Origin: Elusimicrobiota bacterium
GTDB taxonomy: Bacteria > Elusimicrobiota > Elusimicrobia > FEN-1173
Direction of reading: 5' to 3'
Length of the DNA: 64,000 bases
Assembly: GCA_016788905.1 (NCBI GenBank)
Contig: JAEURZ010000003.1
Span: 39,262-103,261 of the forward strand
Position 1 is the stretch's first letter; the number at the start of each line of letters is the position of its first letter. Positions 9,069 through 27,800 of this stretch are shown one piece after another. The notes below the pieces were generated by a model. That model was not told where the DNA came from, did no database searches, and saw only the letters and a program-made list of their open reading frames with translations. A program made the position numbers and the translations under genes.

Positions 9069-9079
9069 GGAGAGACCCC

Positions 9080-10483
9080 ATGAATGCAACGAAAGGTTGG
9101 AAGCTTTACGCGGGCGGATTGGTCTTGGCGGTCCTTTCAACCGCCGGGGTCACCGCTTTGTTGGTGGATATTTTCGAGAAGAAACAAGAAGCCAAAAATC
9201 CCTTTTTTCGTGTGGTGGAGTTGACGGATGAAACGGAAGATCCCGCGGTGTGGGGAAAAAATTTCCCCCAACAGTATGACGCCTACAAACGCACGGTGGA
9301 TATGGTCCGAACGAAATACGGGGGGTCCGAGGCGCTCCCGCGGACGCCCACCGACGCCGATCCTCGATCGGTGGTGGCCACGTCGCGACTGGAATCCGAT
9401 CCCCGTTTGAAAACCATGTGGGCGGGATACGCTTTTTCAAAAGATTTCCGAGAAGAACGCGGGCACGCTTACATGTTGGAGGATCAGACTTACACGGAAC
9501 GTCAACGGGTGGCGCCCCAGCCGGGGACCTGCATGCATTGCCACGCTTCGGTATATGTCCCTTATAAGAAATTGGGGAACGGAGATTTAACCAAAGGCTT
9601 TGAAGCCATGAACCAAATGACTTACCCGGAAGCGCGGAAGTTGGTCAATCACCCGGTGGCCTGCATTGACTGCCACGACTCGGCCACGATGCAACTTCGA
9701 GTCACCCGGCCGGGATTTTTGGAGGGAATCCGGACGCTTAAGCTTTCTCAAGGGGTGAAAGATTATGACGTGAACCGGGACGCCACGCGTCAAGAGATGC
9801 GCTCCTTTGTGTGTGGTCAGTGCCACGTGGAATATTATTTCAAGGGGAAAGAGAAACGGTTGGTTTACCCCTGGCATAAGGGTCTGAAAGCCGAGGAAAT
9901 GTTGGCCTACTACGATGAAGTTGGCCATAAGGATTGGGTTCACGCGGACACAGGGGCCGAGGTTTTGAAAGTTCAGCACCCGGAATTTGAAATGTGGAGC
10001 CAAGGGATTCATTCCCGATCCGGTGTCGCTTGTGCCGATTGCCATATGCCCTACACCCGCATTGGCGCACAGAAGATCTCTGATCACCATGTGCGAAGCC
10101 CTCTCTTGAACGTCAGCCGGGCCTGTCTCACATGCCACAAGTTTTCAGAGGATGAAATGAAAGCCCGGGTGGATATCATTCAAACCCGGACTGTTCAATT
10201 GCGGGACAAGGCCATGGACGCTCTGGTGGAATTGATCCACGACATCAAGAAAGCCAAAGAGGAGGGGGCCACCGATGAACGCCTGGCCATTCCCCGGAAC
10301 GCCCAGCGGCAAGCCCAGTTTCGGTTGGATTTTGTAGAGTCGGAAAACTCCAACGGGTTCCACGCCCCCCAAGAGGCGGCTCGCCTGCTCGGGGAATCCA
10401 TCGATTGGAGCCGGAAAGGGCAGGTGGCTTTACGCGATGGAAAGAAATCGTTGGTTTCGGCGCCGAAATCAACATCCTATTGA
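9080..10483 (+). CDS. nrfA: cytochrome c nitrite reductase NrfA (pentaheme), CXXCH-type first heme
   Basis: Five heme motifs (CMHCH, CIDCH, CGQCH, CADCH, CLTCH) with NrfA-typical spacing and 'CGQCHVEYYF'. Signal/TM 'LYAGGLVLAVLSTAG'. RBS 'aaggag' precedes the ATG at 9080. The ORF-track start at 8963 is an upstream extension. Confidence 0.85.
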   Translation: MNATKGWKLYAGGLVLAVLSTAGVTALLVDIFEKKQEAKNPFFRVVELTDETEDPAVWGKNFPQQYDAYKRTVDMVRTKYGGSEALPRTPTDADPRSVVATSRLESDPRLKTMWAGYAFSKDFREERGHAYMLEDQTYTERQRVAPQPGTCMHCHASVYVPYKKLGNGDLTKGFEAMNQMTYPEARKLVNHPVACIDCHDSATMQLRVTRPGFLEGIRTLKLSQGVKDYDVNRDATRQEMRSFVCGQCHVEYYFKGKEKRLVYPWHKGLKAEEMLAYYDEVGHKDWVHADTGAEVLKVQHPEFEMWSQGIHSRSGVACADCHMPYTRIGAQKISDHHVRSPLLNVSRACLTCHKFSEDEMKARVDIIQTRTVQLRDKAMDALVELIHDIKKAKEEGATDERLAIPRNAQRQAQFRLDFVESENSNGFHAPQEAARLLGESIDWSRKGQVALRDGKKSLVSAPKSTSY

Positions 10484-12690: not shown

Positions 12691-12838
12691 GGTGTTCCGA
12701 TAGATTCCCAGAAGAGCCATCGATCACAGTTTTTGGCGTTTTAGCCGATAAGTTATAAAATCCCTCTTGAAGGGGATGGCCCACGGGGAGACGTGTGCCC
12801 TTAAAATCTTTAGCGGAGAGCGACGAAGGGAGAAACCA

Positions 12839-15800
12839 ATGAACCCGAAAGACACCAACGAAGAAGCGCGCATCATCCAGTACATCAACTTGAAGCTGGC
12901 GGCCCGGGGGCAGGCGACCTACGGGGGCGTTTCCGGGGATCTCTTGGAAGTGGCCTGGCCCCTGTTGCAAAACCATCAGGAAAAAAGCCGATTGTTGGCG
13001 GGACATCTTTGTCCGCCGGACCGACGTATCCAAGATTTCCTTGACGCCTATTTGCATGAGCCGGAGGGATTGGAGCCTGTGTCTCTTCCCCATTTGACGT
13101 TCACGTTGGATCGGCCCGGTTTGGCCCGAACGCTTTCCCTTCCCCCGGACCAAGACGAGTTTTCATCTTCGATCATCCACACGTATCGAGTGAAACAGGG
13201 TATTCTGCACAATCCCAAAAGTGATCGACGGACAACCGCGGGCGTGTTTCACGTGGCCGAGGGTGGGTTTGCGGTTCCCTGGGATAAGAAGGCTGTTCCC
13301 AAGGTCGCGTTTCGGAACCTTTTTGCGGCGGCGGTACAACCCCCGGAGGACAACAAAATTCTTCCGTTCACCTCGAGCCAAAAGGAGAAAGTTCGCGTAT
13401 GGGTGTCCCTTCTCCTCCGTCCACTGGTCTGCCCCGCCGTTCCGGGGCTTCGTCCTGAAAAACGAACGGAGGTCCGCTTCTTTGCTCCGGGATCGTTGAT
13501 CAGCAACCTCGATTTCCTGGAGCGCATTTTTGGGAACGCGGGCGATCCCTCCCTTCCCGCCAACGATGCCGCCCTTGATATCGATGGGTGGACCGGACAC
13601 ACGGGGTGCGTTATTTTGGCTCCCCACTTGATTACGTTAAAGAAAAAAGACCTCGGGTTACCCACTCGGGACCAAGCCACTGAGCGTCAAAAAAGAGATG
13701 GCATGTGTTGGGACCATCCCGACGACCTTTACAATGACGGACAAGCCTTTAAGATTACCGCGCGGGATGAGCGGGGCGTGATGGTCACCCTGATTGCAGA
13801 TAATTATTTTGGGTACTGCAAGAAGGAAGTGAAGACGCAGATCAGTTACTCCGCCAATCTTTACGGTTGGGCTGAGGAAGAGCACGCCGGTGGAGCGATC
13901 GCGTTTTCCAGTTACGACCTCGGGGTTCGGTTTGCCCAGGAAGTCCGGGCGCTCCCGCAAAACGGTTTTACTTTCGCCGATATTGCCAAAAATTACGGAG
14001 ACCTTATGGAGGTCCAACCTGAAGGATATGGGGTGGATCGCCGGTTTCCGGACGTTCTCTATGTCCCGGAGGACGCGGTGTTCGACATGACCTCGAAAAC
14101 CGTCTCCTGGGAGTGGGACGGTGTGAAACGGTCCCTTCAACTCATCGCGCGAAACGTTTATATTCTTCCCAATGGGTACAAAGTGTTTCTGTCTCACTCG
14201 GTAGGGGGGCAAGGATGGCATTTGCGAGGCACCTCGGCCGAAGGAACGGTCTGTCATAAGCCCAGCACCGTCAGCGGTGGGGGAAAGTCGGAAATTTCAA
14301 AATCGATTGAGGACGCCATGGTTCAAGGGCCCGTGTTTGTGGCGGATTTTCCCAAAGACATGGACAGAGTGGAAGCCATTATTCGCCGGTCCTATGAGGA
14401 CCGTTTCAAAGATCGTCAACTGGTTAAGAACCCTTCCCGACCGATATTGGGTGTTGATCGATCCCTGGGTTCAGTGATTAAACTATTAACTCCAGCGGCG
14501 TCTTACAGTAACGAATTCAACGAGTGGCTTCGTTCCATTCCGTCGTATATCAAGGATCTGGTTTTCATAGTCAAACGTTTTTACCATTCCGATTGGGGAA
14601 CCGATTGGCGCAGTCATTTCAGTGTGGACATGGTGAACGGTACGTCGGGCCATGAATTAAAGTTGGACGGGCGTCGCTTGCGGGCCACCTATCTTCGGGT
14701 GGGTTTTGAGCGGGACGGATCCCGCCGGATCTGTCGCGTGCGCCAGGATTTTTCTCCCACAGAAAAAGTGCAGACCGAAGATGACATCACGGCCTCCGTG
14801 GTTGTTCCGCGCGAGTCCATCGTTGGGTTGCGTGCGGGGGAAATTCACCCGAGCGTTAAAATTGTGACCAATTGCGAACGACGCTTGTTTCAGCGCCCGG
14901 ATGAGGCGATTCATCCCGGATATGACAAACAAGCTGAGGCGGATTTGTCTGGGAACGAGGTGTTCCTCTCCAACTGGGAACCCATGGGCCCGGCGGAAGC
15001 GCGGACCTTGGTGGATGACGCTCTCTCCTTTGAGCTGTTCACGGCCCCGGTTCGGGATCTATTTCATCGGTTCCTGGCCGATGGAAAACCAGCCTATATC
15101 GTGTCGTCCGCTCGACCGCGCATCGTTGATGGGAAGCCCTCCAAGAATCCCCGGTATTTGCAGGAACGTCCCGACTTGATGAACCCACGGTTGGTGCACG
15201 TCTCTGAAATGGGGACCCGTTTGTATCGAAAGATCCCCATGGGAAAACCTGTCCCCTGGGTGGTGGACGCGGTGCTGCCCGCGCGGCGGAACAATCCCCC
15301 CGAAAACACGAAAAAAGGCATAGGAGCACCACCACTCTGCGTCTACAATCCGATTCATTTCGAGGAACTTCCTGAACTGTTTATGGATTTTGTTTGCAGT
15401 CTCACAGGGAAATCTCCTTCAACGACGGGTTTCGGGTCTGAGGGGGCTTTAACGAAAGGCCCATTCAACGCTCTTCCGCCGGTGATTGACCTGAACAACG
15501 CGATGGTCTCCTATATTTTGACCGGGTATCAAGGGTTCACGACCGCCGCGGGTCATGTGGGGCCCCATATTCAAGTGGACCACGACATCAGTTTGCTGGT
15601 CCCCGAAATCTGGGCCCGTTTGAGCGCCGAAGAGCTGGATCCAGCGTTCCTCATTCGAGAAGGGTATTTGGAACCTGTCTCGGACTTTGTTCATGAGGGT
15701 AAAACGGTTTTGGCCAGCCGGTTGGGGTATCGGATCACCGATAAATTTGTGCGTGGATTCCTTGGAAGAATTTTCAATAACCCGACCATCGTGTTCACTC

Positions 15801-16276
15801 CGGAAATGTTGCAGCCGGAATTGCAGGATCTGGGCGTTTTTGTCCAAGGGGTGAACGCCATTGTCGAGGCTCAGCAGCGTGTGGCGGAAGACTATTTTTC
15901 TGACGGCAGCGTAGCCCTGGCCTGCCCGCCGTTGAAGGCACTCTTACATATAATGGCGAAGGGAAGCTTTGAAGGGAAAGGGCCCTCTCATCCGGACGTT
16001 CGAGCCCTTTTTGACCGTAAAAATCTGCTCAAGAGCGACTGGTATCAGGCCCGTCTTTCCGCTCAACAGAAAAAAGACATCGCTCTCTGGCAGCGCCACG
16101 TGAAGCATATGGAGGCGTCGCTCAAATCCTTTCCTCCCGAAGAGTATCCTCTGATGGGCATTGACGATCGATGGGCTCACGCTAAAAAGATGTTGGCCGA
16201 AGTCAAAAGTCCCGCTTATCGGGAGTCCCTCGTGGGGTGCCTTGGCGTCGATCCAGCTTCTCTTTCTTCCAAATAG
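12839..16276 (+). CDS. large (1145 aa) soluble protein of unknown function. Its size would fit a PPi-dependent PEP carboxykinase-like family, but this is unverified
   Basis: Long uninterrupted ORF with RBS-like 'agggagaaacc' before the ATG at 12839. No TM segments and no motifs I recognise. The PPi-PEPCK suggestion rests on size only. Confidence 0.6.
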   Translation: MNPKDTNEEARIIQYINLKLAARGQATYGGVSGDLLEVAWPLLQNHQEKSRLLAGHLCPPDRRIQDFLDAYLHEPEGLEPVSLPHLTFTLDRPGLARTLSLPPDQDEFSSSIIHTYRVKQGILHNPKSDRRTTAGVFHVAEGGFAVPWDKKAVPKVAFRNLFAAAVQPPEDNKILPFTSSQKEKVRVWVSLLLRPLVCPAVPGLRPEKRTEVRFFAPGSLISNLDFLERIFGNAGDPSLPANDAALDIDGWTGHTGCVILAPHLITLKKKDLGLPTRDQATERQKRDGMCWDHPDDLYNDGQAFKITARDERGVMVTLIADNYFGYCKKEVKTQISYSANLYGWAEEEHAGGAIAFSSYDLGVRFAQEVRALPQNGFTFADIAKNYGDLMEVQPEGYGVDRRFPDVLYVPEDAVFDMTSKTVSWEWDGVKRSLQLIARNVYILPNGYKVFLSHSVGGQGWHLRGTSAEGTVCHKPSTVSGGGKSEISKSIEDAMVQGPVFVADFPKDMDRVEAIIRRSYEDRFKDRQLVKNPSRPILGVDRSLGSVIKLLTPAASYSNEFNEWLRSIPSYIKDLVFIVKRFYHSDWGTDWRSHFSVDMVNGTSGHELKLDGRRLRATYLRVGFERDGSRRICRVRQDFSPTEKVQTEDDITASVVVPRESIVGLRAGEIHPSVKIVTNCERRLFQRPDEAIHPGYDKQAEADLSGNEVFLSNWEPMGPAEARTLVDDALSFELFTAPVRDLFHRFLADGKPAYIVSSARPRIVDGKPSKNPRYLQERPDLMNPRLVHVSEMGTRLYRKIPMGKPVPWVVDAVLPARRNNPPENTKKGIGAPPLCVYNPIHFEELPELFMDFVCSLTGKSPSTTGFGSEGALTKGPFNALPPVIDLNNAMVSYILTGYQGFTTAAGHVGPHIQVDHDISLLVPEIWARLSAEELDPAFLIREGYLEPVSDFVHEGKTVLASRLGYRITDKFVRGFLGRIFNNPTIVFTPEMLQPELQDLGVFVQGVNAIVEAQQRVAEDYFSDGSVALACPPLKALLHIMAKGSFEGKGPSHPDVRALFDRKNLLKSDWYQARLSAQQKKDIALWQRHVKHMEASLKSFPPEEYPLMGIDDRWAHAKKMLAEVKSPAYRESLVGCLGVDPASLSSK

Positions 16277-16389: not shown

Positions 16390-19300
16390 ATGTTGATCCT
16401 TCCCGGTCAATTCAAAAGGGTGACGGTTGCCATTCTTTCCGTTTCCCTGTTTTTTTCTCAATGTCTTTTTGCCTACCAATCTGAAAATGGATTTTGGGAA
16501 GACCGGCGGAGAGCCACCCAGCGGCAATCTCCAACCCAATTGGCCTCCCGGTCCATGGGATCTCCTTCCCTGGGAGGGGGCGCATTGGCCCCTGTTCCGA
16601 TCCTCAATTCTTCTCTTTCCTCTAACGTTTCGAAATCACTTCCGAAAAGTTTTTTAAAAGACCACGCCAACCTTTTGGCGGTGCTGTCTCCCGCATTTGG
16701 AAATATCCGAAAAGTATCTCTCGGGCACCCCTCTCCCTTTTCCGGCCCCGTGGTCATTCATATTCAAGACGTTCATATGAATCAAGAGGCCCAGTGGAAT
16801 ATCCGCGAAACGGTTCGATCGTTAATTCAGTCGGGCCAGGTGGGCTTGGTGGCTTTGGAAGGAGCCACAGAGGAACTGAACCTCCAACCTTTTGTGGATT
16901 TTCCCTATCGAAGAGCCGTTAAGTCAACGGCGGATTACCTCCTCAAGCAGAACAAAATCACCGGCCCCATTCACGCGGCTTTCACCGCAACGGGAAAACT
17001 GCCTCTCCTACGCGGAATTGATGATCCTGCCCACTATCAAGCCAACGTCCAGGCCTACAAAGATTCCGCTCCGCGGTTGCTGAAAATGCGCGAAGAAGTC
17101 CACGTTTTATCGATTCAGATCGAAGCTGAGAAAGGAGTTGTTTTTTCTCCCACCTTACGTGCGTTTGACCAGAAAGTCCGAGCTTACAGGGCAGAAAAAA
17201 TGGCCCTGGGGGACTATGTTCGGACCCTCATGGAAGTGGGGGGCGATTCTCCTGTCCCAATCGCCCTCCGCCATTTTGGCGAGGCGTTGGAAATGGAACG
17301 CACACTCAACTTCTCTCAGGTGGAGCTTGAGCGGGCCAAGGTAATCGAAGGACTAACGCAAAAACTGGATCCTCAAGAAACCAAAACGATGATGGCCCTA
17401 AGCCTGGCTTATCGGGCCGGGCAACTCAACTACGCCGAATTTTATACGCAATTGAGGGAAACGTGCCGGGCGAAGGGGCTCTCCTTGTCGAATTATCCTG
17501 CCCTGGATGCCTACGTTCGCTATGTGCTTCTGGCTGAGGGAATCGATGCTGAACAGTTATTGGAAGAGATCTCGATCCAGGAAAAACGTGCCTATGATCG
17601 ATTGGCGGCAACGTCGGAAGAAAAAGATTTGATCGCCCGGTCCCGTGAACTCTGGTTAACCGAAAAGTTGTTGGATTTTTCCCTGACACCAGCGGAATGG
17701 AAAGAATACGATACCACCGTTTCCAGGCCGGGGCGGGAGAATCTGCTTTCGTTCGAGTCGTTCTATCGGGAAGCCCATGCCCGTGACGGCGCCATGGCGG
17801 ATAATCTCCTGAACGCTGTGGGGCAAATGCCCCAGGGGAAAAGGGTCTCCATCTTGGTTACCGGTGGATATCACGCGGAAGGGATTGCCAAAAAATTAAC
17901 AGAAAGTGGAACCACGGTCATTTCCTACGTTCCGAAAATCGAAAAAATTGACACGACCCAGGGATCGGCCTACCTCAGTGTTTTCAGTCAAGAGAAATCC
18001 CCATTGGAAAAGCTGTTTTCTGGGAATAAATTATTCTTAGGCATCAACCCTGCGGCGGGTGTGCCGTCAGCGGCTGTGTTGTCTTCGTCTTTAGCCCAGT
18101 TGGAAGGAATTGCTTCGGAGGACCTGGAAAAAATATCTGGCTATGTAAATGAATTTCACCCGGGCATGAAATTATCACTTAAAGATCCTCATCAAATGCC
18201 GGACAGTGGATGGATGGCTGAGGTCCATGTTCAGGTCGGGGACGAAGAAAAGAGTTTTACGCTCATAACAGATCACGAATTCCGTATTAAATCATTCAAC
18301 TTAACCGAAAATGAGGAACGCCCGCCTTTCGCTTGGCTTACGGAAGTTCTCATCCCTGTTCATCACTTTCTCCAGGGCCACGCGGTCAACTTATGGCTCC
18401 GTGAAGGGAAATCCCCTGAGAGTTTTCAATCTTCATTCTTGGCTGCCCGTGAAACTTCCCTTTCTCGTTTAGTTAAGCAAACCTTGGCGGCGCGCAAATT
18501 ACTCCGATCACAAATAAATGCTAACGGAAGGGCGACCGGCTGGATGGGGGTGGGGATTTCTTGGGGGATCGGAGCGGGGGTGGGATTCGTTCGAAAGTGG
18601 TGGGGGAAAACTGAAAAAGGGGAAACCCCTTTCTCCTACGCAAGGCATTTTGTTTCCTGGAATCGGGGATTAAACGCGTCTCGTTCGGAAGATGGGGTGA
18701 ACGCCTTGGTGTCTGTTTCGGCGGGAGGGTTGGCGGGGCAGACGTGGATGGGTATGGCGTTGGACCCTTCTTTTCTTTTTGTGTGTATTTGGTTTTTGTT
18801 GTTTGTGGCGTCGCACTATGAGAAAAGAACAGGCGAAGGGAAAAAATCCTCGCTTGAAAAGCTAACCGGGCAGGCCCCCAGTTTCAGCAAAGCCATACAA
18901 TTGTTCGGGTTTTATCTTCTTCCCCTTTCGTCCTCGGTGTACATGGGGGCGTCTTCGGTGCCCCTGGGCTGGATTCTTTTGGTGGTCTTCCTCTATTTTC
19001 TTCTCATTCGGCGGGTGCATGATCAGATCAATAAAGAAAATGGGGTTCATTTAGGGGCATGGGGAACCTATTCCAATTTCCTTTTCCCAGCGTCAGCGGC
19101 CTACTGGTATGCGCGGTGGAGCGGGAAGGACGCCCAGGAGGCCCATGGGATCGGTCGGAAATGGATCTTTCTGGAAGGGGTCCCGTTGATTGGTTTGATA
19201 CTGATGGGTGGCTTATCTTCAGGTTTGGGAGAAGAAAGCGTGCTCTGGTTCGGTATCGATCCCGTTTTGGGGTCTTTGGCTCTTTTAGGGCACTTTGGGA

Positions 19301-21858
19301 TTGCCTGGGGTCGATTCGCAATGATGGCCCGGGTGGAAACGATGCAAGGGGAATCCCCACCGGCGGTGGGGGCCGTGACGCGTTACCTTATTTTGTTTGG
19401 ATTGTTCTTGGTCCCCGGAGGTCTCTTCATTGGGTTGTTCGTTAACTTGGTCGTGGCTCTTTTGCAATGGGACGCGGATGGGCGCGTTCCTTCTACTAAA
19501 ACACCCTGGTCTCCGGAAATCACACGAAAAGGGTATCAGATCCACTTGGTCGACTCGGATCAGTTGGAGGGATCACAGGATAAATGGCTTTCGGTCCGGG
19601 CGGTCATCACGCGAATTGGCCCTGACGGTGAGATCCAGTACCTGTTGGTGAAAAACCCTAGTGATCGATGGGAGTTTCCGGGCGGGGGAGGGGCTGAGGG
19701 GGAGTCTCCCACAGAGGCATTGAAAAGAGAACTGAAAGAAGAATTGGGGGAGCCGTTTGCACAGGATGTGGTCCAATTTCTTACCGAAACAAATGAAAAT
19801 AAAAAAAATAAACCGTTAATTACTCATGATTTAATGAAACCCAATAAAAATAAAGAATATAGATCAGTTTATCTTGAAATTTTCCCCCTAAATAAAAAGA
19901 AACACTCTTCTGTCCATATTAATGATGAGTCTTTGAGTAGTCGTTGGTTGAGTTACGAGAGAATGAAAATTGAACTCCCTTCGTTGACATTGGCGACGCG
20001 GATGTCGTTTCTCCCCGAAGTTTTTTTGCGCGAGTTTGGGATTGAAGGAGTGGTGTCCATGTCGCCTTTATTTGGCGACCCAGGAGCGCTATTGGTTGAA
20101 ACAAAAACAAAGAACTATGTGTTTCGCAAAGCGGGGAAAGATGCGTCAGAAGCCGCTTTTAATTCGGCGGTTCAAGCACATCTTTTTAAGAACGGAATTC
20201 TGGTGAGAGAATTAATTAAACGGCAGGGTTCGGAAGAGAGTGAAGAGAAATTTATTTTAAGGTTAGGAAATGTTCCGTTTGTTTTGGAACGTTACGGGGA
20301 TGAGGGCGAACCCATTAAAAAATCCGACGCTGAGGAAAAACACTATATTGCGTTAGGAGCATTGGCCGCTCAAGTTCAAAAGGCTTTAAAAAGTTTCCCA
20401 AAGAATTTGAGTCCAGATCGAAGACTCCCACGGTTTGAGGAAATGGTGAATCCAACGGTGGTGCTGGGTCTCAGCTTCTGGAATGTGGGTTTTTCGATTA
20501 ACGAGGATGGTTCTGTTTCTGTTTCGCGAATTCGTGTATTCGACCGTCCCCATTGGGGAGATCGGCTTGAAGAAATAGTGAATCTAGCGTTTGAAGTTGA
20601 AGCCCCCGGTTTACTTCAAGAACTTGTTACTGCGTATGCTTATCAAATTAATCCGGAACTGACCGATTCGGAGGTCCGTTCTTTAAATGGACCGAATCAG
20701 AAAGCGAACATGAGAGTAGCGTTTAGTGGGTATATGGCCGCAAAAAGGTTGGCTGATGAAAGGATTAATAACGCAAAAAAAATGTCGCCTTCTTCTCTTT
20801 CTTGGTTTTGGATGAATTTTCCATCCCACGTAAGCATTTTAGATGACCTCCTACGGAAAGCGCCCTGGGAATCGGTGTTTTTGGTTGTGGGAATGGGTGG
20901 CGCTGTCATGGCCAATTTGTTGCTGGGAGCTTCGATTTTTTGGGTTTTGGCGGCGTCCCTATTGGCCGGGGTGTTGGGGTATTCTCATACCTGGGGAACT
21001 TATGGGTTTGTGGATGGAAAAATGAAACGGGTTGTGGGAGCCCTGTCTGGGAACAAAGCCGTTTCCTGGTGGCTCTGGACATCAATCTTTGGGGCTCTCT
21101 TGTTGGGGGTGGGGCCGATGGTTCCGGCCGAAGCGCTTGGGTGGGTTCTGGGTGGCGGTACTTGGGCGGCGGCTTGGGTTGGGGTCGTTGTTCACCGGCG
21201 GGGGAACCGGGAATGGCTGGTGGATCATTTGGACAACGGGAACTTGACCCCGGCTCAGAAAAATATCGCCCGGGATATTTTAAAGAATTTGGAACAGCGA
21301 CCCATCCGGCTCGGGGTGGAGGAGTTTCGGGCCATGGTCATGCAAACGGCGGAAACCTATTCCCGTGGACAGGGAAGTCTTGCCATCGATGTTCATGCCC
21401 CAGCGGCGTCGCTTGGCCAGGGGATAAAGCTGTATTTTGTGGATCCTGTGGCGGTTCGTTCTTCCGAGAATGTGGAAAAATTGACATGGATGATGAAAGC
21501 GGACAAGAATCTTTATGTGGTTGCGGGCAATTCAATCGATGGTTTGCCCAGTGATCGTGTCCTTGTGGTGGAGGGGGCTTTCCAATCGGTGGGGGGGAAA
21601 GACAACCCTCTCTTTGATGTGTCTTTGAAAGAAGTCCGAGTTCCGATCCTTGATCGATTTAAAAATCCGTCGTTCCGAATTCTCCAAACACCGCTGATCC
21701 AGTTGAATGGTGACAACTTGGTACCAGAGGATCCACTCCTTGTTGCGTCTAAGAATGCTCTGATTTTCATCCTGGAATCCATGCGGGCGTTCCCGTCCAC
21801 CGCGTTTCACTGGGGTGATGTATTGCACGTTTATCGGGCTTTGGCGGAATCGGCTTAA
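16390..21858 (+). CDS. giant multi-domain membrane protein 1 (1822 aa): signal peptide, TIKI/TraB-like N-domain, polytopic TM region, Nudix hydrolase box, C-terminal TM + soluble domains
   Basis: Signal-like 'VTVAILSVSLFFSQCLFA'. N-domain motifs 'VVIHIQDVHMN' and 'ARDGAMADNLL...VTGGYHAEGI'. Nudix box 'GGGGAEGESPTEALKRELKEELGE'. Multiple hydrophobic helices. N-terminal 550 aa is paralogous to the downstream giant gene. Confidence 0.75.
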   Translation: MLILPGQFKRVTVAILSVSLFFSQCLFAYQSENGFWEDRRRATQRQSPTQLASRSMGSPSLGGGALAPVPILNSSLSSNVSKSLPKSFLKDHANLLAVLSPAFGNIRKVSLGHPSPFSGPVVIHIQDVHMNQEAQWNIRETVRSLIQSGQVGLVALEGATEELNLQPFVDFPYRRAVKSTADYLLKQNKITGPIHAAFTATGKLPLLRGIDDPAHYQANVQAYKDSAPRLLKMREEVHVLSIQIEAEKGVVFSPTLRAFDQKVRAYRAEKMALGDYVRTLMEVGGDSPVPIALRHFGEALEMERTLNFSQVELERAKVIEGLTQKLDPQETKTMMALSLAYRAGQLNYAEFYTQLRETCRAKGLSLSNYPALDAYVRYVLLAEGIDAEQLLEEISIQEKRAYDRLAATSEEKDLIARSRELWLTEKLLDFSLTPAEWKEYDTTVSRPGRENLLSFESFYREAHARDGAMADNLLNAVGQMPQGKRVSILVTGGYHAEGIAKKLTESGTTVISYVPKIEKIDTTQGSAYLSVFSQEKSPLEKLFSGNKLFLGINPAAGVPSAAVLSSSLAQLEGIASEDLEKISGYVNEFHPGMKLSLKDPHQMPDSGWMAEVHVQVGDEEKSFTLITDHEFRIKSFNLTENEERPPFAWLTEVLIPVHHFLQGHAVNLWLREGKSPESFQSSFLAARETSLSRLVKQTLAARKLLRSQINANGRATGWMGVGISWGIGAGVGFVRKWWGKTEKGETPFSYARHFVSWNRGLNASRSEDGVNALVSVSAGGLAGQTWMGMALDPSFLFVCIWFLLFVASHYEKRTGEGKKSSLEKLTGQAPSFSKAIQLFGFYLLPLSSSVYMGASSVPLGWILLVVFLYFLLIRRVHDQINKENGVHLGAWGTYSNFLFPASAAYWYARWSGKDAQEAHGIGRKWIFLEGVPLIGLILMGGLSSGLGEESVLWFGIDPVLGSLALLGHFGIAWGRFAMMARVETMQGESPPAVGAVTRYLILFGLFLVPGGLFIGLFVNLVVALLQWDADGRVPSTKTPWSPEITRKGYQIHLVDSDQLEGSQDKWLSVRAVITRIGPDGEIQYLLVKNPSDRWEFPGGGGAEGESPTEALKRELKEELGEPFAQDVVQFLTETNENKKNKPLITHDLMKPNKNKEYRSVYLEIFPLNKKKHSSVHINDESLSSRWLSYERMKIELPSLTLATRMSFLPEVFLREFGIEGVVSMSPLFGDPGALLVETKTKNYVFRKAGKDASEAAFNSAVQAHLFKNGILVRELIKRQGSEESEEKFILRLGNVPFVLERYGDEGEPIKKSDAEEKHYIALGALAAQVQKALKSFPKNLSPDRRLPRFEEMVNPTVVLGLSFWNVGFSINEDGSVSVSRIRVFDRPHWGDRLEEIVNLAFEVEAPGLLQELVTAYAYQINPELTDSEVRSLNGPNQKANMRVAFSGYMAAKRLADERINNAKKMSPSSLSWFWMNFPSHVSILDDLLRKAPWESVFLVVGMGGAVMANLLLGASIFWVLAASLLAGVLGYSHTWGTYGFVDGKMKRVVGALSGNKAVSWWLWTSIFGALLLGVGPMVPAEALGWVLGGGTWAAAWVGVVVHRRGNREWLVDHLDNGNLTPAQKNIARDILKNLEQRPIRLGVEEFRAMVMQTAETYSRGQGSLAIDVHAPAASLGQGIKLYFVDPVAVRSSENVEKLTWMMKADKNLYVVAGNSIDGLPSDRVLVVEGAFQSVGGKDNPLFDVSLKEVRVPILDRFKNPSFRILQTPLIQLNGDNLVPEDPLLVASKNALIFILESMRAFPSTAFHWGDVLHVYRALAESA

Positions 21859-21887: not shown

Positions 21888-24800
21888 ATGGAAAAAATGA
21901 CTTTTCTGCCAAAATTAAATCCGATATTGCGTCATTTGAGTGTGATCCTTTATGTGTGCACTCAAGTGGTATTTACGCATGCCGCTGAATCCGGATTTTG
22001 GGAGGAACGTCGCAAAAGCCGATCTCTCATTGGCTCAACGTATGCGGCGCTTCCAACGTCCTCCCTCCCTGGGATGGAACGAGTGACTAAAAATCTCGGT
22101 ACGTTGTCGGCCTCTCTCCATTCTTCCATTTCAAACCTCGGTGGCCATGCCCCTTTATCTCACGTCATTCGAGCCATTCCCCACGAATTAGGAAGCATTC
22201 GGAATATTTACCCACCCCAATCTCCCGAAAACCCAATCGTTGTCCTTCTTCAGGACGTCCATTGGAATATCGACGCCCAAAGGAATTTGAGCCGTTTGAT
22301 TCAAGAATTATCTTCTTTCCAATGGAAGGATGGAAAAAGCACAGAAATGGTTCTGGCTCTGGAAGGGGCATTTGGCGCCATCGATATCTCCGCCTTTAGG
22401 AACTACGGTCACCCGACGATTTTGAGGCGAGTCGCTGATCGGTTACTATTGGATCGCCGCATTGCTGGGCCGCTCCATGGACTTCTATCGGGGGAAAAAA
22501 TTCCCGCCCGCATTGTGGGCGTGGATGATCGGCGTCATTACCAGTCCAACGTCATGGCTTACCGCACCGCCATTCCGCATCAAAAAAGCCTCCGCAATCA
22601 ACTTTTCCAAAAACGAAGAGAGTTCGTTAAGCGTCAGAATACCGTTTTCAGCAAAGGCCTCAAATCCTTTGATTATGAGGCACGGTCCTACCACGAGGGG
22701 AAAAAGAGCTTAAGCCATTATTCCCGTATTCTGGCGAGCACGTATTCGGGAAATAAACAAACGTTCGCGCGAGAGAACCCCACCCTGTCCATTTTCCTTC
22801 AAGCGGTGGAGATGGAATCTTCTCTTGATTTCAATCGGGTTGAACGAGAACGCGGGCAATGGCTCAATCAATTGACCCATTTTTTATCAGCGGAAGGAAG
22901 AAATTCCTTAATTGAAGCTGGCATCTCTTATCGATTGGGACAGATTAGTTTGTCGGATTTTTATCAACACCTCATTGCGGTGGGTGGCACGAGGGCCCCT
23001 TTGGCAAATTTCCCAGCGATGGCGGCCTATACCAATTACGTGCTTTTAGGGGAACGGGTGGACCCAGGGAAACTTTTCGAAGAAGTCACCCGGTTGGAAA
23101 CGGCTCTCTATGACCGGTTGGCGGAAAGCCAAGAGGCAAAAGCCTTGGTCAAGGACACTCGAGAGCTTGATCTTTCGCTCCGGTTGGTTGATTTCGCCCT
23201 CACTCCCCCAGAGTGGGAGGCTTATAAGCGTTGGGTGCCTGAAAATTCCAATTTGGAAATTTTTGAGCGGTTTTATAGGGAAGCAGAAGCGCGCGATGGG
23301 ACCATGGCGGGGGCCCTTCAGTCCAGTTTGATTTTGTCTAAAGGGAACAAGGGTCCACTCGGTCCCCGCCCAACGCCTGCGTTGGGGATTTTGGTGGCCG
23401 GGGGCTTTCACGGGGAGGGAATAACGAAACGATTGGTGAACGCAGGGATCGGGGTGATCACGGTGGTCCCCCGAATTAAAACGTTGGATGACAAACCGGG
23501 GCTGGCCTTGTCTGTCTTTACCCAAGATCGGACCCCGCTTGAAAAACTCGTGTCTGGGGAAAAATTGTTCCTTTCAGAACCGGTGTTTGATCCCTCACGC
23601 CAAGCGTTGACCGCACTGGCCTGCGCCGCCACGGGGGCGGCGGATGGTCTCGCCATACCCCCCGGTGAAATCTCCAATCTATTACCTACCCCATTGGCCG
23701 ATCTTCCCACCCAAGTTCAGACACCATCCCCCCATACGGGTGTGGTCTCGATCCAAGCGAGAGGTGGCGAAGTCACCGTTACTTCAACACTTGAAAATCA
23801 AGGAGGACAGATCCTCTCCCTCACTGAATCCCAGGCGGGAAGAGGATTGCCCCAACCCGAACCCCTTCGCGGGTATTCCTGGGAACAATTGGTTGCGGCG
23901 ATGAGGCCCTTTATCGCCAGCGGGGGAAAAGACGAATCCTTTTATCGGGGGGTCGTATGGGATTTGATATTAGACCCTCGCCGGACCAAAAGACTGGGTC
24001 CGTTGCTCTCACGCCAAGCGGTGGACCCGGCACAGGCCATATCGGAATCCATCGACAACGGCCAAGATGGTGTTCTTCGACGGTTTGAACCGGATGTTCG
24101 GCCCGTCGGGCGACGCGGGGTGGGAGGGATTCAGATATTCAATGATCTCAAATCCAGCGCTGATCGCGTTGTCATTACTTCTTCCCGTGACGGGCTCAAT
24201 GGCGTTGAATTTACTTTCTGGAAAGAGGGCGGTGAAATTCGATTTACATATAAAATTCTTTATGTCTCCGAATGGGGAGACGAAAATATTAATGCTCTTT
24301 TGCCAGCCCTGTCAAAAGATATCGCCACGGAATTGGTTTTTCGCCTTCCTCAGGGGACGAAAATCGACGTTCGCTGCGCTCTTTCGGCCGAAGAAACGGG
24401 CCGCCGTCTATCCTTTGTGAGAAAAAAACTGCGCTTGAATACCCGTTCGCCTATCGACGTTAATGGGACGAATGTCGATCAAACAGGCGAATACAAACAC
24501 GGGGGCCTCACGCGTCCGGTATCGGCCACGGAATTGCCTCCCGTTCACGTCACCATCAACCCAAACGGATACTCGGTTACAGATGAGGGCATTGGCATGG
24601 GTTTGAAAGAGATGTTTGAGGACTATCTCTTCCCCTACAAGACAACCAAATCGATGACCACTCCCCATGGAGAAGTTGATTATTATTACAAACCGGGCTC
24701 CGGTCGGGAGACAACGATCGCATCGTTCATCCCATCGAGAGAAATTGAATCTCTCTCGCCCTCTCCGGAAGGGACTCCCCTCAACGTCATTCCGGAACTG

Positions 24801-27800
24801 TGCTTGGTCTTTCCCGATGGTGCCAACCTGACGGAAGATCGAGGGACCATTGACTTAGTGCCATCCGATCAACGCGTCACTTCCGAAATCGCGGGGATGA
24901 AGCGTTTGATTGACCGATGGACGAATCCAAGGCTTTCCATCGAAGAACGGTTTGCCCTACTGAACACTTTGGCCGTATTCTTAAGGGCAAAACAACCTCG
25001 GGCCGAGAAAGGGTTGACGAGGGACAATCTTCAAACCTGCACAGATCTCTTGTGGTATCTAAGCAAGAAAATCCTCCCTTTGTTAAAACAGGACAGGGAA
25101 CAAGGAAAGACGTTCCTTCCCAACACCGAGGAATGGCTTTCTTTTGAGGGGAAAAGCGGCGTCATTCTTTTGGATACAGATATTTTTGAACCGAACGCGG
25201 CGGATTTCATCGCTGCAGGGATGTCCGATGTAACGGAAAACCCACTGTGGGCTCCATTGGATAAGCGGATACGTCATTTTTATCTGGCGGATTTGAGCGC
25301 GGCCCCTGCGGTGATTCTCGTGGGCAGTGGGGAAACAGTTATTGTTGATCGGACTGTCTTTGAGCGAGAAAGTTCTGACCCGGAAATCCTGTTGGAGAGA
25401 ATTCGAAAAAGTATTGATACGGCCTGGGGAAAATCCAGCCAAACGTTAACAAAACAATCCCCTTCCAAAAAGTCTTGGGTTCAGAGGCATTCCCTCCGTA
25501 TCGCCTCCTTTTTTTTGGCCCTGCTGGTCGCCGCTTCGCTCTGGATGACCTGGACTGTTGATGGAAAATTTGAGAATGAACCGGTTGAATTCGTCCCCCA
25601 TCAGATGACTCTAACTCCTGGTGCGATCGGATGGTCAGCCCCCAGTTGGGTCGATTCGGAATGGTGGAGTTCGTTTTTCTCATTAGACAAGGAACTTAAA
25701 CCGCGCAAACCCTATGGACGGATCATCGGTTTAGTGGATTCTCCTTATCTGGTTAAAGGGTTTTACCCGCATCTTACTGGCGACGGTTCATTCAAATCAG
25801 CGGGCGACCTGACCTCCCGGATGGAGGGACCTTCTAAGTCAAAAATAAGCCTTATGGTCGCCGTAACAAAGGAAAGAAACGAATCCATCCCTTTGCTTGT
25901 TCCTTACCACGGACAAGTGGACGCCAAGAGCGTTAGAATCCATATCCCTGGAAGACCTGCGGAGGCCTTACCACTCGCATACGAATCGGGACAACCGGTG
26001 GTTCATCCTCTAACGAGAGGATCTTTTTCCCTCTCATGGGACGTTTGGGTGGCTGAGAAGCAATATTTTAGTTACCGAAACCTACCTCTACCACCCAAAG
26101 AAATCGAGAATTTCCCCTCCGAATGGGCAGCGGTCCTTGATCCTTTGCAATCCGCGCACGACGAAAAAAAACTTTCGGCCATTAAACATCTGATGGGACG
26201 CTATTTCGCCTACGATGCCGGTAAAACCTATGGATTTGATGGCACCAGTTGGGCCAGCACCGCTAAACCCTATTTGGAAAGAGGAGAACGAATTCCAATT
26301 GTCTGCAACACATCAACGTTATATTTTTATCTGATGGCGCGTTATGTGGGCCTTCCCGCCATATATGTCGAATTAGAAAATTCAGGAAGTGAGAATATCC
26401 TATACCGGGATCTGTCCGGCCACGCGCAGGTCGTCGTAAAAGTGGGATACGAATGGGTCGTGCTTGAAACGACCAATGTAATGCCTCTTGTCCAAAGAGC
26501 GTTTCCCTTAAAACCGAGTTCACTATGGGGAGATATTCAATCCCAAACTAAAAATTTAAATTTAATACTAATCGGTTTTTCTGGTTTTTTATTTTTTATG
26601 GCTCTATGGAAGGGGGGACCTCAATCAAAGGAATATTTTTCAAGGAATTATTTTAACCGGTTGAGATATTTTTTAAAAAACAGAGTTCATTTAAAGGGAT
26701 TCGATATACAGGTCTCCCCATGGGGAATGATCAAAAAAACCAGAACCACAAATCCTTTTGGAAATCCTTCGATTGAAACAGAAACTCATCTGGGTGTTCT
26801 TTATCAAACCAAAGGATCAACGTTTACCCCGTTGAAATATGAGCATGGCAAATCCGACTACTTTCTGTCTCTTAAAGGGGAATTCGAAGGCGTCATAATC
26901 AAATTAATATTTCTCTTGGTGTTCAGCGTCATCTTTGGATCAATTGGATGGGATATTTTGTCATCTTCATCGAATCTGACGACCCCGATCCTAATGGGAA
27001 TATCCATATGGATGTTGATCACCTTTTTGGTTTTGCATCGACTTCCTGTGTTAATTCGCCTCAATGAGAATGGATTAAAACTTGTTTCTGTTCCCTATCC
27101 AAAACGATTCGTTCCTGAGGTTTTAGAGGTTAAAGACGGCGCCTATTTGGATTTTGGGGGAGGTGATTTCTATTGGCTGGGACTTGAATCGGGTCACCTT
27201 AAGAAAATTGTTATTCCTGGACTTCGGGAAATTAAACCTGTTTCTAAACCCGGAGGGAAAGCCGCTTTAGTGGCATTGGTTAAAGATCAAAAAAATGGAT
27301 CCAGATTTATTGTATACGAACCCCAGGGGACTCATTTAAGGGAAGTATGGAGTATTCCCTCTCCCCCAAGCCTTGCCCCTCTGTATGATTGGAAATCATT
27401 ATACTTGTTCCCATCGAACCAATACGTCATTGCCTACCAAACCATCAATTCGGATATGACGGAATTCATTACTCTTGGCCAACCCATTCCGCCTATTCCG
27501 TCACAAATTCCGTTGAGGCATCTTTATCCATTTCAGAACAGTTTTATTAGTGAAGTGGGGAAAATCCCGATTTTTCCTGGGGATAGTCATCCGGAAATTA
27601 CACCTCGTCTGGATGGGAGACCGTATTACATCTTTTCAGACGATATTGTTGGGTTCCCAACAGGTGAGCGGGATGACGAGTCCAAATATTTAACTTTGTT
27701 CAATATTTGGTCGGGTGACCGGTTGGGGGAAATACCCATTCAAGGAATGGACAGCATCTATAACCCTATCGTTTTAATTGATAATACTGTTTTCAGATTA

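What the first reader, a model, noticed from the sequence alone, without database searches (positions are those of the whole stretch)
19570..19990. Nudix hydrolase box embedded in giant protein 1
'LSVRAVITRIGPDGEIQYLLVKNPSDRWEFPGGGGAEGESPTEALKRELKEELGE' contains a full Nudix signature (G-x5-E-x7-REUxEExGU). It sits after a long polytopic stretch. The second half of the presumed Nudix fold is encoded by strongly AT-rich DNA starting at ~19780.
Basis: partly seen in the sequence, partly recalled or inferred. Interest (0 to 1): 0.55.

Follow-up and report, generated by a model that had tools for sequence, protein, structure and literature searches.

The report
Membrane-tethered Nudix domain with dead kinase
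The flagged motif is a real Nudix hydrolase domain, already annotated as such in public databases, but it sits next to a kinase-like domain with a broken active site, between two membrane-spanning blocks of a large modular protein family found here only in Elusimicrobiota bacteria.

Summary
The quoted peptide is at aa 1067-1121 of a 1822-aa ORF (16390..21858, +). The Nudix box is at aa 1099-1120 (nt 19684-19749) and matches GX5EX7REUXEEXG; only the final hydrophobic position differs (Glu). Pfam NUDIX scores 43-48 bits against a cutoff of 21.1. An AlphaFold model (pLDDT 83) matches solved Nudix enzymes. The AT-rich DNA (19749-19956, the lowest GC in the window) encodes folded strands of the same domain and is homologous to orthologs, so it is not an insertion.

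New here: the Nudix domain is fused to an APH/choline-kinase-like fold whose catalytic His-x-Asp is lost. A conserved membrane unit precedes this pair, and the resulting cassette recurs, sometimes in tandem, in related proteins. Canonical-box copies in ten relatives keep REx2EE, four have Glu-to-Gln, and one positional ortholog has deleted the box.

The host protein belongs to a family defined by a ~550-aa N-terminal module behind a signal peptide. Family members carry varied enzyme domains. All 47 hits among 185,579 species-representative genomes were Elusimicrobiota.

Loop charges suggest the cassette is cytoplasmic; this is an inference. The substrate is unknown. At domain level this is ordinary and already annotated. 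The architecture appears undescribed.

The parts
16390..21858 (+). ORF of 1822 aa, the host protein ('giant protein 1')
   Evidence: Identical to P0001, 'MAG: NUDIX domain-containing protein [Elusimicrobia bacterium]', seen on 3 contigs.
16390..16479 (+). Predicted signal peptide (MLILPGQFKRVTVAILSVSLFFSQCLFA/YQ)
   Evidence: Read from the sequence: a basic n-region, a hydrophobic core (KD 1.85) and an A-x-A-like end. No dedicated predictor was run.
16477..18339 (+). Family-defining N-terminal module (aa ~30-650), weakly ChaN/Tiki-like
   Evidence: It aligns in all 120 homologs, with near-invariant H124, D127, H129, N131, E157 and H495. PF04187 scores 20-22 bits, below its cutoff of 27.7, in 3 of 6 diverse members. 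No hit to solved structures by sequence.
18526..19479 (+). Membrane block 1 (aa 713-1030), made of sub-unit I (aa ~700-895) and sub-unit II (aa ~888-1064)
   Evidence: Hydropathy and an AF2 helix map at pLDDT 70.6. Sub-unit II precedes every canonical-box Nudix module found.
19567..19983 (+). Nudix-fold domain (aa ~1060-1198; Pfam match aa 1073-1192)
19684..19749 (+). Nudix box GGGAEGESPTEALKRELKEELG (aa 1099-1120), with E1105, R1113, E1114, E1117, E1118
   Evidence: It lies on the predicted helix at aa 1107-1119.
19749..19956 (+). AT-rich patch encoding the C-terminal half of the Nudix fold
   Evidence: GC minimum 0.21; GC3 0.20 against 0.54 for the rest of the gene. Homologous to orthologs apart from a 2-aa indel. 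No promoter, terminator or repeat signal.
19984..20040 (+). Conserved connector helix LTLATRMSFLPEVFLREFG (aa 1199-1217) linking the Nudix and kinase-like domains
   Evidence: 80% identical to P0002, the best-conserved segment. The L and R of TLxTR are nearly invariant in alignment A3. Helix 162-177 of the model.
20041..20739 (+). APH/choline-kinase-like fold domain (aa 1218-1450), catalytically degenerate
   Evidence: Foldseek hits to homoserine kinase II 2ppq, APH(9) 3q2m, AmiN 6sv5, YtaA and NahK. It aligns full-length with P0123 and P0151, which pass the Pfam APH PF01636 cutoff. The window copy itself has no Pfam hit.
20458..20493 (+). Degenerate catalytic loop VVLGLSFWNVGF (aa 1357-1368), in place of PLHGDLHFGNLHF in P0123
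   Evidence: alignment and coordinates. The catalytic Asp is absent; Asn1365 and Asp1385 (IRVFD) are retained.
20863..21195 (+). Membrane block 2 (aa 1492-1602), four predicted helices
   Evidence: Loops alternate K+R 3.1 / 0 / 3.1 / 0.1 / 3.2 across 14-15 homologs.
21196..21855 (+). Conserved C-terminal domain (aa 1603-1822), ending ...YRALAESA; function unknown
   Evidence: Found in 27 of 121 family proteins by local jackhmmer. No Pfam hit.
21888..32036 (+). Tandem paralog of 3382 aa sharing the N-terminal module (context)
   Evidence: 36% identity over aa 16-550. Holds the second most AT-rich patch of the window, 26491-26745.
12767..16276 (+). PPi-type PEPCK-like gene, conserved upstream neighbour (context)
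   Evidence: Orthologous upstream genes in L001, L002 and L050 carry PF26300 PEPCK_PPi_lobe_2. Unrelated to the giant family.

Best explanation
The flagged segment is a genuine Nudix-fold pyrophosphohydrolase domain. All metal-binding and catalytic box residues are present (E1105, R1113, E1114, E1117, E1118), so it is probably catalytically competent. It is not free-standing. With a conserved connector helix and an APH/choline-kinase-like domain that has lost its catalytic His-x-Asp, it forms a soluble two-domain unit of about 400 aa. A conserved membrane unit always precedes this pair, and in the window protein and its full-length relatives a four-helix membrane block follows it. Most likely the cassette faces the cytoplasm. 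There it would hydrolyse a nucleoside-diphosphate-linked substrate close to the membrane, with the dead kinase fold acting as a ligand-binding or regulatory partner rather than a phosphotransferase. The host protein belongs to an Elusimicrobiota family built from three parts: a signal peptide plus a ~550-aa, probably periplasmic, N-terminal module (weakly ChaN/Tiki-like); variable cytoplasmic enzyme 'cargo'; and, in 27 of the 121 proteins examined, a conserved C-terminal domain. Shown: domain identities, box residues, the cassette's recurrence, the family's distribution, and the homology of the AT-rich patch. Inferred: catalytic competence, topology, the role of the kinase-like domain, and the substrate class.
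For: Nudix identity: Pfam above cutoff; box residues present, with 0 of 20,000 shuffles matching; AF2 pLDDT 83 and pTM 0.83; Foldseek matches to NudI, Ap4A and Ap6A hydrolases, CT771 and RppH. Constraint on the box: the box-containing half is 76% identical to ortholog P0002, against about 65% overall, and ten relatives keep REx2EE. Kinase fold: Foldseek hits to small-molecule kinases; full-length alignment with P0123 and P0151, which pass Pfam APH; the catalytic Asp is absent in the window copy. Cassette: membrane sub-unit II precedes every canonical-box module, including the tandem copies in P0004, P0005 and P0006; beyond the Nudix box, only about a dozen of 1.84 billion representative proteins match the module. 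Topology: loops alternate between K/R-rich and K/R-free in both membrane blocks across homologs. Not an assembly artefact: the same protein occurs on 3 contigs, and colinear positional orthologs occur in three other assemblies. Family: 133 homologs with E-value of 0.001 or better share the N-module and carry diverse Pfam domains; all 47 genome hits are Elusimicrobiota.
Against: Nudix catalysis appears dispensable in close relatives. Positional ortholog P0003 has a clean ~55-aa deletion that removes the box. P0010, P0015 and P0044 have Glu-to-Gln in the box. The C-terminal half of the domain is the fastest-evolving segment, at 43% identity, and is compositionally aberrant. No NCBIfam equivalog comes near its cutoff, so there is no substrate assignment. 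Topology rests only on hydropathy and the positive-inside rule. Several helices of block 1 are weakly hydrophobic, the block-1 model is mediocre at pTM 0.46, and the last hydrophobic stretch must be re-entrant, not spanning, for the cytoplasmic placement to hold. No coordinates were available to inspect the active-site geometry.
Confidence: 0.6

Rival explanations
1. The Nudix domain is a non-catalytic or decaying module. Like the kinase-like domain beside it, it would serve as a structural or ligand-sensing pseudoenzyme, and its intact box in this genome would be a remnant.
For: The box is deleted in positional ortholog P0003 while the rest of that protein is conserved at 60-72%. Three copies have Glu-to-Gln. 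Sister module classes in the same family have expanded or lost boxes. Degeneration is reciprocal across cassettes: intact Nudix with dead kinase, or box-less Nudix with a His-x-Asp kinase. The C-half evolves fast and is AT-drifted.
Against: The box half is the best-conserved part of the soluble region between the window and P0002 (76%). All five key residues are intact, and ten relatives keep them. That pattern is not expected under neutral decay.
Confidence: 0.25
2. The Nudix-kinase cassette is extracytoplasmic (periplasmic) because the last hydrophobic stretch of block 1 fully spans the membrane. The domain would then act on an extracellular or periplasmic nucleotide-linked substrate.
For: Counting three clear helices in sub-unit II (a, b, c), with the loop before helix a on the inside, puts the segment after helix c outside. 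The Omnitrophota giant-protein study reports that most detected domains, a set that includes NUDIX, are predicted extracellular, while warning that such predictions are unreliable (bioRxiv 10.1101/2023.11.21.568195).
Against: Block 2 has four helices whose flanks and middle loop are K/R-rich while the two short turns are K/R-free, which puts the end of the kinase-like domain inside. Helix c is broken at a conserved Pro-Gly and modelled as two short helices. Tandem cassettes need an even number of crossings to keep like modules on one side. Other family cargo (PGK, hexokinase, PPDK, IMPase) normally uses cytoplasmic substrates; this last point rests on general knowledge.
Confidence: 0.12
3. The AT-rich half of the domain is a foreign or recombinant patch, a gene-conversion tract from a low-GC relative, so the Nudix domain is a chimera.
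For: It is the most extreme GC trough in 64 kb, at 0.21. The bias extends to synonymous sites, with GC3 0.20 against 0.54. The second most extreme trough lies in the tandem paralog.
Against: The patch aligns residue for residue with orthologs apart from a 2-aa indel. Those orthologs show the same dip more weakly, and distant copies show a mild dip, so the trend is graded. No closer donor appeared in an exhaustive search of 1.84 billion representatives. The two AT-rich patches share no sequence.
Confidence: 0.1

Closest known systems
Small bacterial Nudix hydrolases (NudI/YfaO 6dt3 and 3oga; Ap4A hydrolase 3i7u; CT771 4mpo; T. thermophilus Ndx1 1vc8; RppH)
   Same: Same alpha/beta/alpha Nudix fold, with target TM-scores of 0.6-0.74. 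Same catalytic box on the Nudix helix. Pfam PF00293 passes its cutoff.
   Different: Those are soluble proteins of 130-160 aa. Here the domain is internal to a 1822-aa membrane protein, has Glu at the last box position, carries an extra helix after the box (model residues 82-95), and is fused to a kinase fold. No subfamily model reaches its cutoff (best 29.6 bits against 245), so the substrate cannot be transferred.
APH / choline-kinase-like small-molecule kinases (PF01636): homoserine kinase II 2ppq, APH(9)-Ia 3q2m, amicoumacin kinase AmiN 6sv5, YtaA 2q83, NahK 4wh2
   Same: Bilobal kinase fold (Foldseek E-values from 7e-8 down to about 1e-5, target TM-scores 0.46-0.56). Homologous to P0123, which has HGDLHFGN...FDFE and passes the Pfam APH cutoff.
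   Different: The window copy lacks the catalytic His-x-Asp (VVLGLSFWN), has a catalytic loop two residues shorter, and gives no Pfam hit of its own. It is fused behind a Nudix domain through a conserved helix.
Omnitrophota 'Archaeovorin'-type giant proteins (bioRxiv 10.1101/2023.11.21.568195)
   Same: Very long, multi-pass membrane proteins that string together divergent enzyme domains. The paper's domain lists for these giants include NUDIX, PPDK_N, radical SAM, HEAT, TPR and HAD, which overlaps this family's cargo.
   Different: Those are encoded by genes over 90,000 bp (over 30,000 aa), contain SecA_DEAD domains and N-terminal C39 or S8 peptidases, and come from another phylum. None of those features was found here. 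Homology was not tested directly.
ChaN / Tiki / TraB-PrgY / erythromycin-esterase superfamily (PF04187 and relatives)
   Same: The N-terminal module gives repeated weak PF04187 matches over its C-terminal part. It has near-invariant His, Asp and Glu residues and a GGxHxxG motif, which from my own knowledge of the superfamily resembles the motifs described for it.
   Different: All scores are below the curated cutoff (20-22 bits against 27.7). There is no hit to solved structures by profile. The module is about 550 aa, much larger than ChaN. Its fold was not predicted here.
Bifunctional Nudix fusions such as NadM-Nudix (2r5w)
   Same: A Nudix domain covalently coupled to a second nucleotide-handling domain. 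2r5w appears among the structural hits through its Nudix part.
   Different: The partner domain is an adenylyltransferase rather than a kinase fold, the protein is soluble, and both domains are active.

Membership tests
Nudix hydrolase superfamily (PF00293) | Nudix box GX5EX7REUXEEXGU | tested here: met
   aa 1099-1120, GGGAEGESPTEALKRELKEELG. All specified residues match except the final U, which is Glu1121. 0 of 20,000 shuffles match.
Nudix hydrolase superfamily (PF00293) | Profile score above the curated Pfam gathering cutoff | tested here: met
   43 bits on the whole protein and 48.2 bits on the excised segment, against 21.1.
Nudix hydrolase superfamily (PF00293) | Alpha/beta/alpha sandwich fold with the box on a loop-helix-loop | tested here: met
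   AF2 pLDDT 83, with the box on the helix at aa 1107-1119. Foldseek probability 1.00 to many solved Nudix enzymes.
Nudix hydrolase superfamily (PF00293) | Divalent-cation-dependent hydrolysis of a nucleoside diphosphate linked to X | not testable with these tools
   Needs an enzyme assay.
Specific Nudix subfamilies (MutT, RppH, NudI, YtkD, NudG; NCBIfam equivalogs) | Score above the equivalog cutoff | tested here: not met
   The best is 29.6 bits against a cutoff of 245 (PRK08999). NudI scores 25.4 against 95, MutT 24.4 against 97.9, and RppH 26.2 against 118. Most matches cover only the box.
APH / choline-kinase-like phosphotransferases (PF01636) | Bilobal protein-kinase-like fold | tested here: met
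   Foldseek hits to 2ppq, 3q2m, 6sv5, 2q83, 4wh2, 6ctz and 4feu.
APH / choline-kinase-like phosphotransferases (PF01636) | Profile score above the Pfam cutoff | tested here: not met
   No Pfam hit for aa 1201-1450 even at E-values up to 10. Homologs P0123 (46.3 bits) and P0151 (32.6 bits) pass the 23.2 cutoff and align full-length with the window copy.
APH / choline-kinase-like phosphotransferases (PF01636) | Catalytic loop HxDxxxxN with the catalytic Asp | tested here: not met
   VVLGLSFWN replaces PLHGDLHFGN. The Asp is absent and the Asn is kept.
APH / choline-kinase-like phosphotransferases (PF01636) | Metal-binding Asp of the DFG/DxE-equivalent motif | tested here: met
   Asp1385 in IRVFD aligns with the Asp of FDFE in P0123.
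ChaN/Tiki superfamily (PF04187), for the N-terminal module | Profile score above the Pfam cutoff | tested here: not met
   19.8-21.7 bits against 27.7. The hit recurs in 3 of 6 diverse members at E-values up to 0.1.
ChaN/Tiki superfamily (PF04187), for the N-terminal module | Shared fold | not tested
The profile search against PDB sequences found nothing.
Omnitrophota giant proteins (Archaeovorin type) | Gene over 90 kb, SecA_DEAD domain, N-terminal C39 or S8 peptidase | tested here: not met
   The gene is 5.5 kb. Pfam finds none of these domains in the window giants.
Known anti-phage defence proteins (PADLOC) | Full-length match to a defence-system model | tested here: not met
   The only hit is a 32-aa match of the Nudix box to PDC-S07.

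The most novel reading that the evidence does not exclude
The Elusimicrobiota giant family may be a new class of modular transmembrane transducers. In this reading, cytoplasmic enzyme and pseudoenzyme domains of nucleotide and sugar-phosphate metabolism act as metabolite sensors or local effectors coupled to a periplasmic Tiki/ChaN-like hydrolase module; those domains include Nudix, dead kinase, IMPase/FBPase, PGK, hexokinase, PPDK and DUF89. The membrane-unit + Nudix + kinase-fold cassette would then be a previously undescribed membrane-tethered nucleotide-sensing module, in which catalysis by either partner is optional. That would explain the reciprocal degeneration seen across paralogs.
Probability: 0.15. 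Interest if true: 0.7.

Novelty: new variant of a known kind. Interest (0 to 1): 0.4.

Why it matters
At domain level this adds nothing new: it is a recognisable Nudix hydrolase domain that automated pipelines already label. The context has some value. A Nudix domain welded to a catalytically dead small-molecule-kinase fold, flanked by membrane blocks and repeated as a cassette, is an architecture I could not find described in the searchable literature. Beyond the Nudix box, only about a dozen of 1.84 billion representative proteins match it. It belongs to a multi-copy family of 1,000-3,400-aa membrane proteins found here only in Elusimicrobiota. Family members share one N-terminal module and carry a variety of central-metabolism enzyme domains. 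If that family were characterised, it could show how an uncultivated phylum organises or senses metabolism at its membrane. It would also offer a natural series of enzyme-to-pseudoenzyme transitions.

Tried and rejected
1. A word-indexed homolog search with the module alone (aa 1040-1450) returned only one fragment, so I used local jackhmmer on the 121 family sequences and the exhaustive HMMER search instead.
2. A profile of the N-terminal module against PDB sequences found nothing, so the ChaN/Tiki link stays sub-threshold.
3. afdb50 fold search, meant to ask whether any AlphaFold-database protein has both domains in this arrangement, was unavailable.
4. Model coordinates are not exposed, so I could not inspect active-site geometry, the domain interface or the membrane-helix arrangement.
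5. AF2 of the membrane block plus Nudix gave only a moderate model (pLDDT 70.6, pTM 0.46) and did not settle the topology.
6. I looked for a DNA-level function of the AT-rich patch. There were no promoter-like or terminator-like sites, the A8 run is not unusual for the window, and the patch has no similarity to the second AT-rich patch.
7. Defence-system membership is rejected.
8. Literature searches for Elusimicrobia with giant proteins or NUDIX, and for Nudix-APH fusions, found no description of this family.
9. Assembly chimera is rejected, because colinear positional orthologs exist in independent metagenomes.


Full report
**Observation**

The quoted peptide is present exactly as written, at aa 1067-1121 (nt 19588-19752) of a single uninterrupted ORF on the plus strand, 16390..21858, 1822 aa. 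The Nudix box is aa 1099-1120 (nt 19684-19749): G1099-x5-E1105-x7-R1113-E1114-L-K-E1117-E1118-L-G1120. It satisfies GX5EX7REUXEEXG. The only departure from the 23-residue consensus is Glu1121, where a bulky hydrophobic residue is usual. The relaxed pattern never arose in 20,000 shuffles of the protein. Pfam NUDIX (PF00293) matches aa 1073-1192 at 43 bits, or 48 bits for the excised segment, against a gathering cutoff of 21.1. Direct comparison with solved chains finds the box in many Nudix enzymes.

A hydrophobic block spans roughly aa 715-1030 just upstream. GC falls to 0.21-0.31 over 19749-19956, the most extreme trough in the whole 64-kb window (mean 0.542, sd 0.068 for 100-bp windows).

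**Structure**

I built an alignment of 17 homologous modules (A3) and predicted aa 1040-1450. The model has mean pLDDT 83 and pTM 0.83. The box lies on a helix at aa 1107-1119. The AT-rich DNA encodes an extra helix, three beta strands and two loops of the same domain. The strands are confidently modelled and the loops score pLDDT 62-71.

Foldseek against the PDB returns two interleaved sets of hits:
- Nudix enzymes: NudI/YfaO, Ap4A hydrolase 3i7u (target TM-score 0.74), CT771, Ndx1, RppH and X29.
- Small-molecule kinases of the APH/choline-kinase-like fold: homoserine kinase II 2ppq (E=7e-8), APH(9)-Ia, amicoumacin kinase AmiN, YtaA, N-acetylhexosamine kinase, APH(2'') and APH(3'), and macrolide phosphotransferase.

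**The kinase-like domain is degenerate**

The window copy has no Pfam hit even at E-values up to 10. It does align along its full length with two relatives, P0123 and P0151, that pass the Pfam APH cutoff (46.3 and 32.6 bits against 23.2). P0123 has the canonical catalytic loop PLHGDLHFGN and the metal-binding FDFE. The window protein reads VVLGLSFWN (aa 1357-1365), so the His-x-Asp is gone and the loop is two residues shorter. The Asn (N1365) and the second Asp (D1385, IRVFD) remain. From established knowledge of APH enzymes, loss of the catalytic Asp should abolish phosphotransfer. I therefore read this domain as a pseudokinase that may still bind a ligand. That reading is an inference.

The protein is identical to a public entry already named 'NUDIX domain-containing protein [Elusimicrobia bacterium]', and JGI labels it as MutT-like. 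The domain call itself is therefore not new.

Local iterative searches of 121 family sequences found Nudix-type modules in 23 proteins, with up to four per protein. They fall into three classes:
- A class with an expanded box that keeps REx2EE.
- A class with a degenerate box, where HKNECxGGVG precedes the box and the box glutamates are lost.
- The canonical class, to which the window copy belongs.

Within the canonical class:
- REx2EE is kept in P0002, P0004, P0005, P0006, P0007, P0009, P0011, P0013, P0124 and P0125. P0121, a near-identical fragment of P0002, also keeps it.
- One Glu is replaced by Gln in P0010, P0015 and P0044, and by Thr in P0123.
- In P0003 a clean deletion of about 55 aa removes the first strands and the whole box, while the flanks stay conserved.

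P0002, P0003 and P0004 are positional orthologs. Each sits immediately downstream of a PPi-type PEPCK gene, as in the window, and P0004, like the window, has the Asp-Al exchanger gene downstream.

Domain by domain, the box-containing half of the Nudix domain is 76% identical to P0002 and the connector helix 80%, against about 65% overall. The AT-rich half is only 43% identical. The box therefore looks constrained in this lineage, yet catalysis is evidently dispensable in a sister lineage.

**The AT-rich patch**

The patch aligns residue for residue with the orthologs apart from a 2-aa indel, so it is not an insertion. The bias is partly due to amino acids, with Lys plus Asn reaching 29%, and partly synonymous, with GC3 at 0.20 against 0.54 for the rest of the gene. 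Orthologs show the same dip more weakly (GC3 0.38 and 0.29 against 0.53). More distant copies show only a mild dip (0.44-0.46 against 0.52-0.55).

I found no promoter-like or terminator-like sites, no unusual homopolymer, and no similarity to the window's second AT-rich patch, which lies in the neighbouring paralog. Lineage-specific compositional drift of a weakly constrained, surface-loop-rich segment fits best, but the cause remains unexplained.

**The cassette**

Membrane block 1 splits into two sub-units. Sub-unit I (aa ~700-895) is widespread in the family. Sub-unit II (aa ~888-1064) precedes every canonical-box Nudix module, including the tandem copies in P0004, P0005 and P0006. The recurring unit is therefore membrane sub-unit II, then Nudix, then the connector helix (TLxTR...EYG), then a kinase fold that is either full or reduced to its N-lobe.

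Degeneration across cassettes is reciprocal:
- P0123: both domains intact.
- The window protein and P0002: intact Nudix, dead kinase.
- P0003: both dead.
- P0004, P0005 and P0006: one cassette has an intact Nudix and only a kinase N-lobe; the second has a box-less Nudix and a kinase that retains His-x-Asp.

An exhaustive HMMER search of 1.84 billion representative proteins found only about a dozen matching beyond the Nudix box. Most of these are identifiable members of the same giant family.

**Topology (inferred)**

No dedicated predictor was available and model coordinates are not exposed, so I applied the positive-inside rule across homologous copies.

- Block 2 has four helices. Its loops alternate K+R 3.1 / 0 / 3.1 / 0.1 / 3.2, which puts both the end of the kinase-like domain and the C-terminal domain inside.
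- In block 1, the loop between helices a and b has no Lys or Arg in any of 13 copies, so it faces out. The loops beside it are positive, so they face in.
- The last hydrophobic stretch is broken at a conserved Pro-Gly, and AF2 models it as two short helices. If it is re-entrant, the Nudix domain is cytoplasmic.

This agrees with block 2, with the need for tandem cassettes to lie on the same side, and with an N-terminal signal peptide that places the N-module outside. It is not settled: several block-1 helices are weakly hydrophobic and the block-1 model is mediocre (pTM 0.46).

**The host family**

The search found 133 homologs with E-value of 0.001 or better, of which the best 120 are listed. 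Most match the query mainly over its first ~550 aa. That module has near-invariant His, Asp and Glu residues and gives repeated sub-threshold ChaN/Tiki (PF04187) matches. A profile search against PDB sequences found nothing.

Downstream, members carry varied Pfam domains: Nudix, IMPase/FBPase-family, DUF89, PGK, hexokinase, PPDK_N/PEP-utilisers, ROK, NAGPA, glycosyltransferases, radical SAM, metallophosphoesterase, HEAT, TPR, rhomboid and M50 peptidases. Roughly half have no recognisable domain.

The 3382-aa gene immediately downstream (21888..32036) is a tandem paralog. A pattern scan of 185,579 species-representative genomes gave 47 confirmed loci, all in Elusimicrobiota MAGs, with four to six hits in individual MAGs. 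That is a lower bound, because only two peptide patterns were scanned.

Compared with its closest orthologs, the window protein lacks about 925 aa (two further Nudix-type modules and an IMPase-family domain) between the N-module and the membrane block.

**Comparison with known systems**

I found no paper describing this family. The nearest published parallel is the Omnitrophota 'Archaeovorin' giant proteins. These also string NUDIX, PPDK_N, radical SAM and repeat domains between many membrane helices. However, those genes exceed 90 kb and carry SecA_DEAD and C39 or S8 peptidase domains, none of which occur here. This is a resemblance, not membership. A PADLOC scan found only the 32-aa box.

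**Verdict**

At domain level it is ordinary and already annotated. What is new is the context: a membrane-flanked Nudix-pseudokinase cassette inside a multi-copy modular membrane-protein family found here only in Elusimicrobiota. The substrate, the topology and the role of the kinase-like domain remain inferences.

Noticed in passing
window 21888-32036 (+): A 3382-aa ORF immediately downstream is a tandem paralog. It shares the ~550-aa N-terminal module (36% identity) but nothing else recognisable, apart from a weak sub-threshold transglutaminase-core hit at aa 1472-1527.
   Followed up: partly
window 26491-26745: The second most AT-rich patch of the window (GC minimum 0.27) lies inside the paralogous giant and encodes a hydrophobic segment (NLNLILIGFSGFLFFMALW). 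It has no sequence similarity to the Nudix patch. Both of the window's extreme AT troughs fall inside the two giant genes.
   Followed up: partly
window 12767-16276 (+): This 1169-aa ORF has no hit in my Pfam copy, but its orthologs upstream of P0002, P0003 and P0004 carry PF26300 (PPi-dependent PEPCK lobe 2). The order PEPCK-PPi, Nudix giant, (second giant), Asp-Al exchanger is conserved across several Elusimicrobiota assemblies.
   Followed up: partly
window 16750-16866 and 17854-17883 (aa 121-159, 489-498): The N-terminal module has near-invariant VVIHIQDVHMN, LVALEGA and LVTGGYHAEG motifs across about 120 homologs. That suggests a conserved metal or catalytic site in a probably periplasmic domain of unknown function; the ChaN/Tiki similarity is only sub-threshold.
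   Followed up: partly
homologs P0001-P0120: The family's variable 'cargo' seems rich in glycolysis, gluconeogenesis and sugar-phosphate enzyme domains (PGK, hexokinase, PPDK_N/PEP-utilisers, IMPase/FBPase family, ROK, DUF89, HAD, 2-hydroxyacid dehydrogenase, aldo-keto reductase), all fused into membrane proteins. No statistical test of enrichment was done.
   Followed up: no
L002 (P0003), aa ~1990-1995: A clean in-frame deletion of about 55 aa removes the Nudix box in a positional ortholog, while the rest of that 2694-aa protein stays 60-72% identical. This is a natural knock-out of the catalytic motif.
   Followed up: yes
P0151 (448 aa): A stand-alone protein with a hydrophobic N-terminus is the only relative of the kinase-like domain found outside the giant family by the exhaustive search, and it passes the Pfam APH cutoff. 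It might represent the free-living ancestor of the cassette's kinase domain.
   Followed up: no
window 8963-10483 and 5842-8607: Ordinary chromosomal neighbours include a cytochrome c552 (NrfA-type) gene and an acetyl-CoA-synthetase (ADP-forming)/GNAT fusion. Nothing suggests a mobile element or genomic island around the giants.
   Followed up: no
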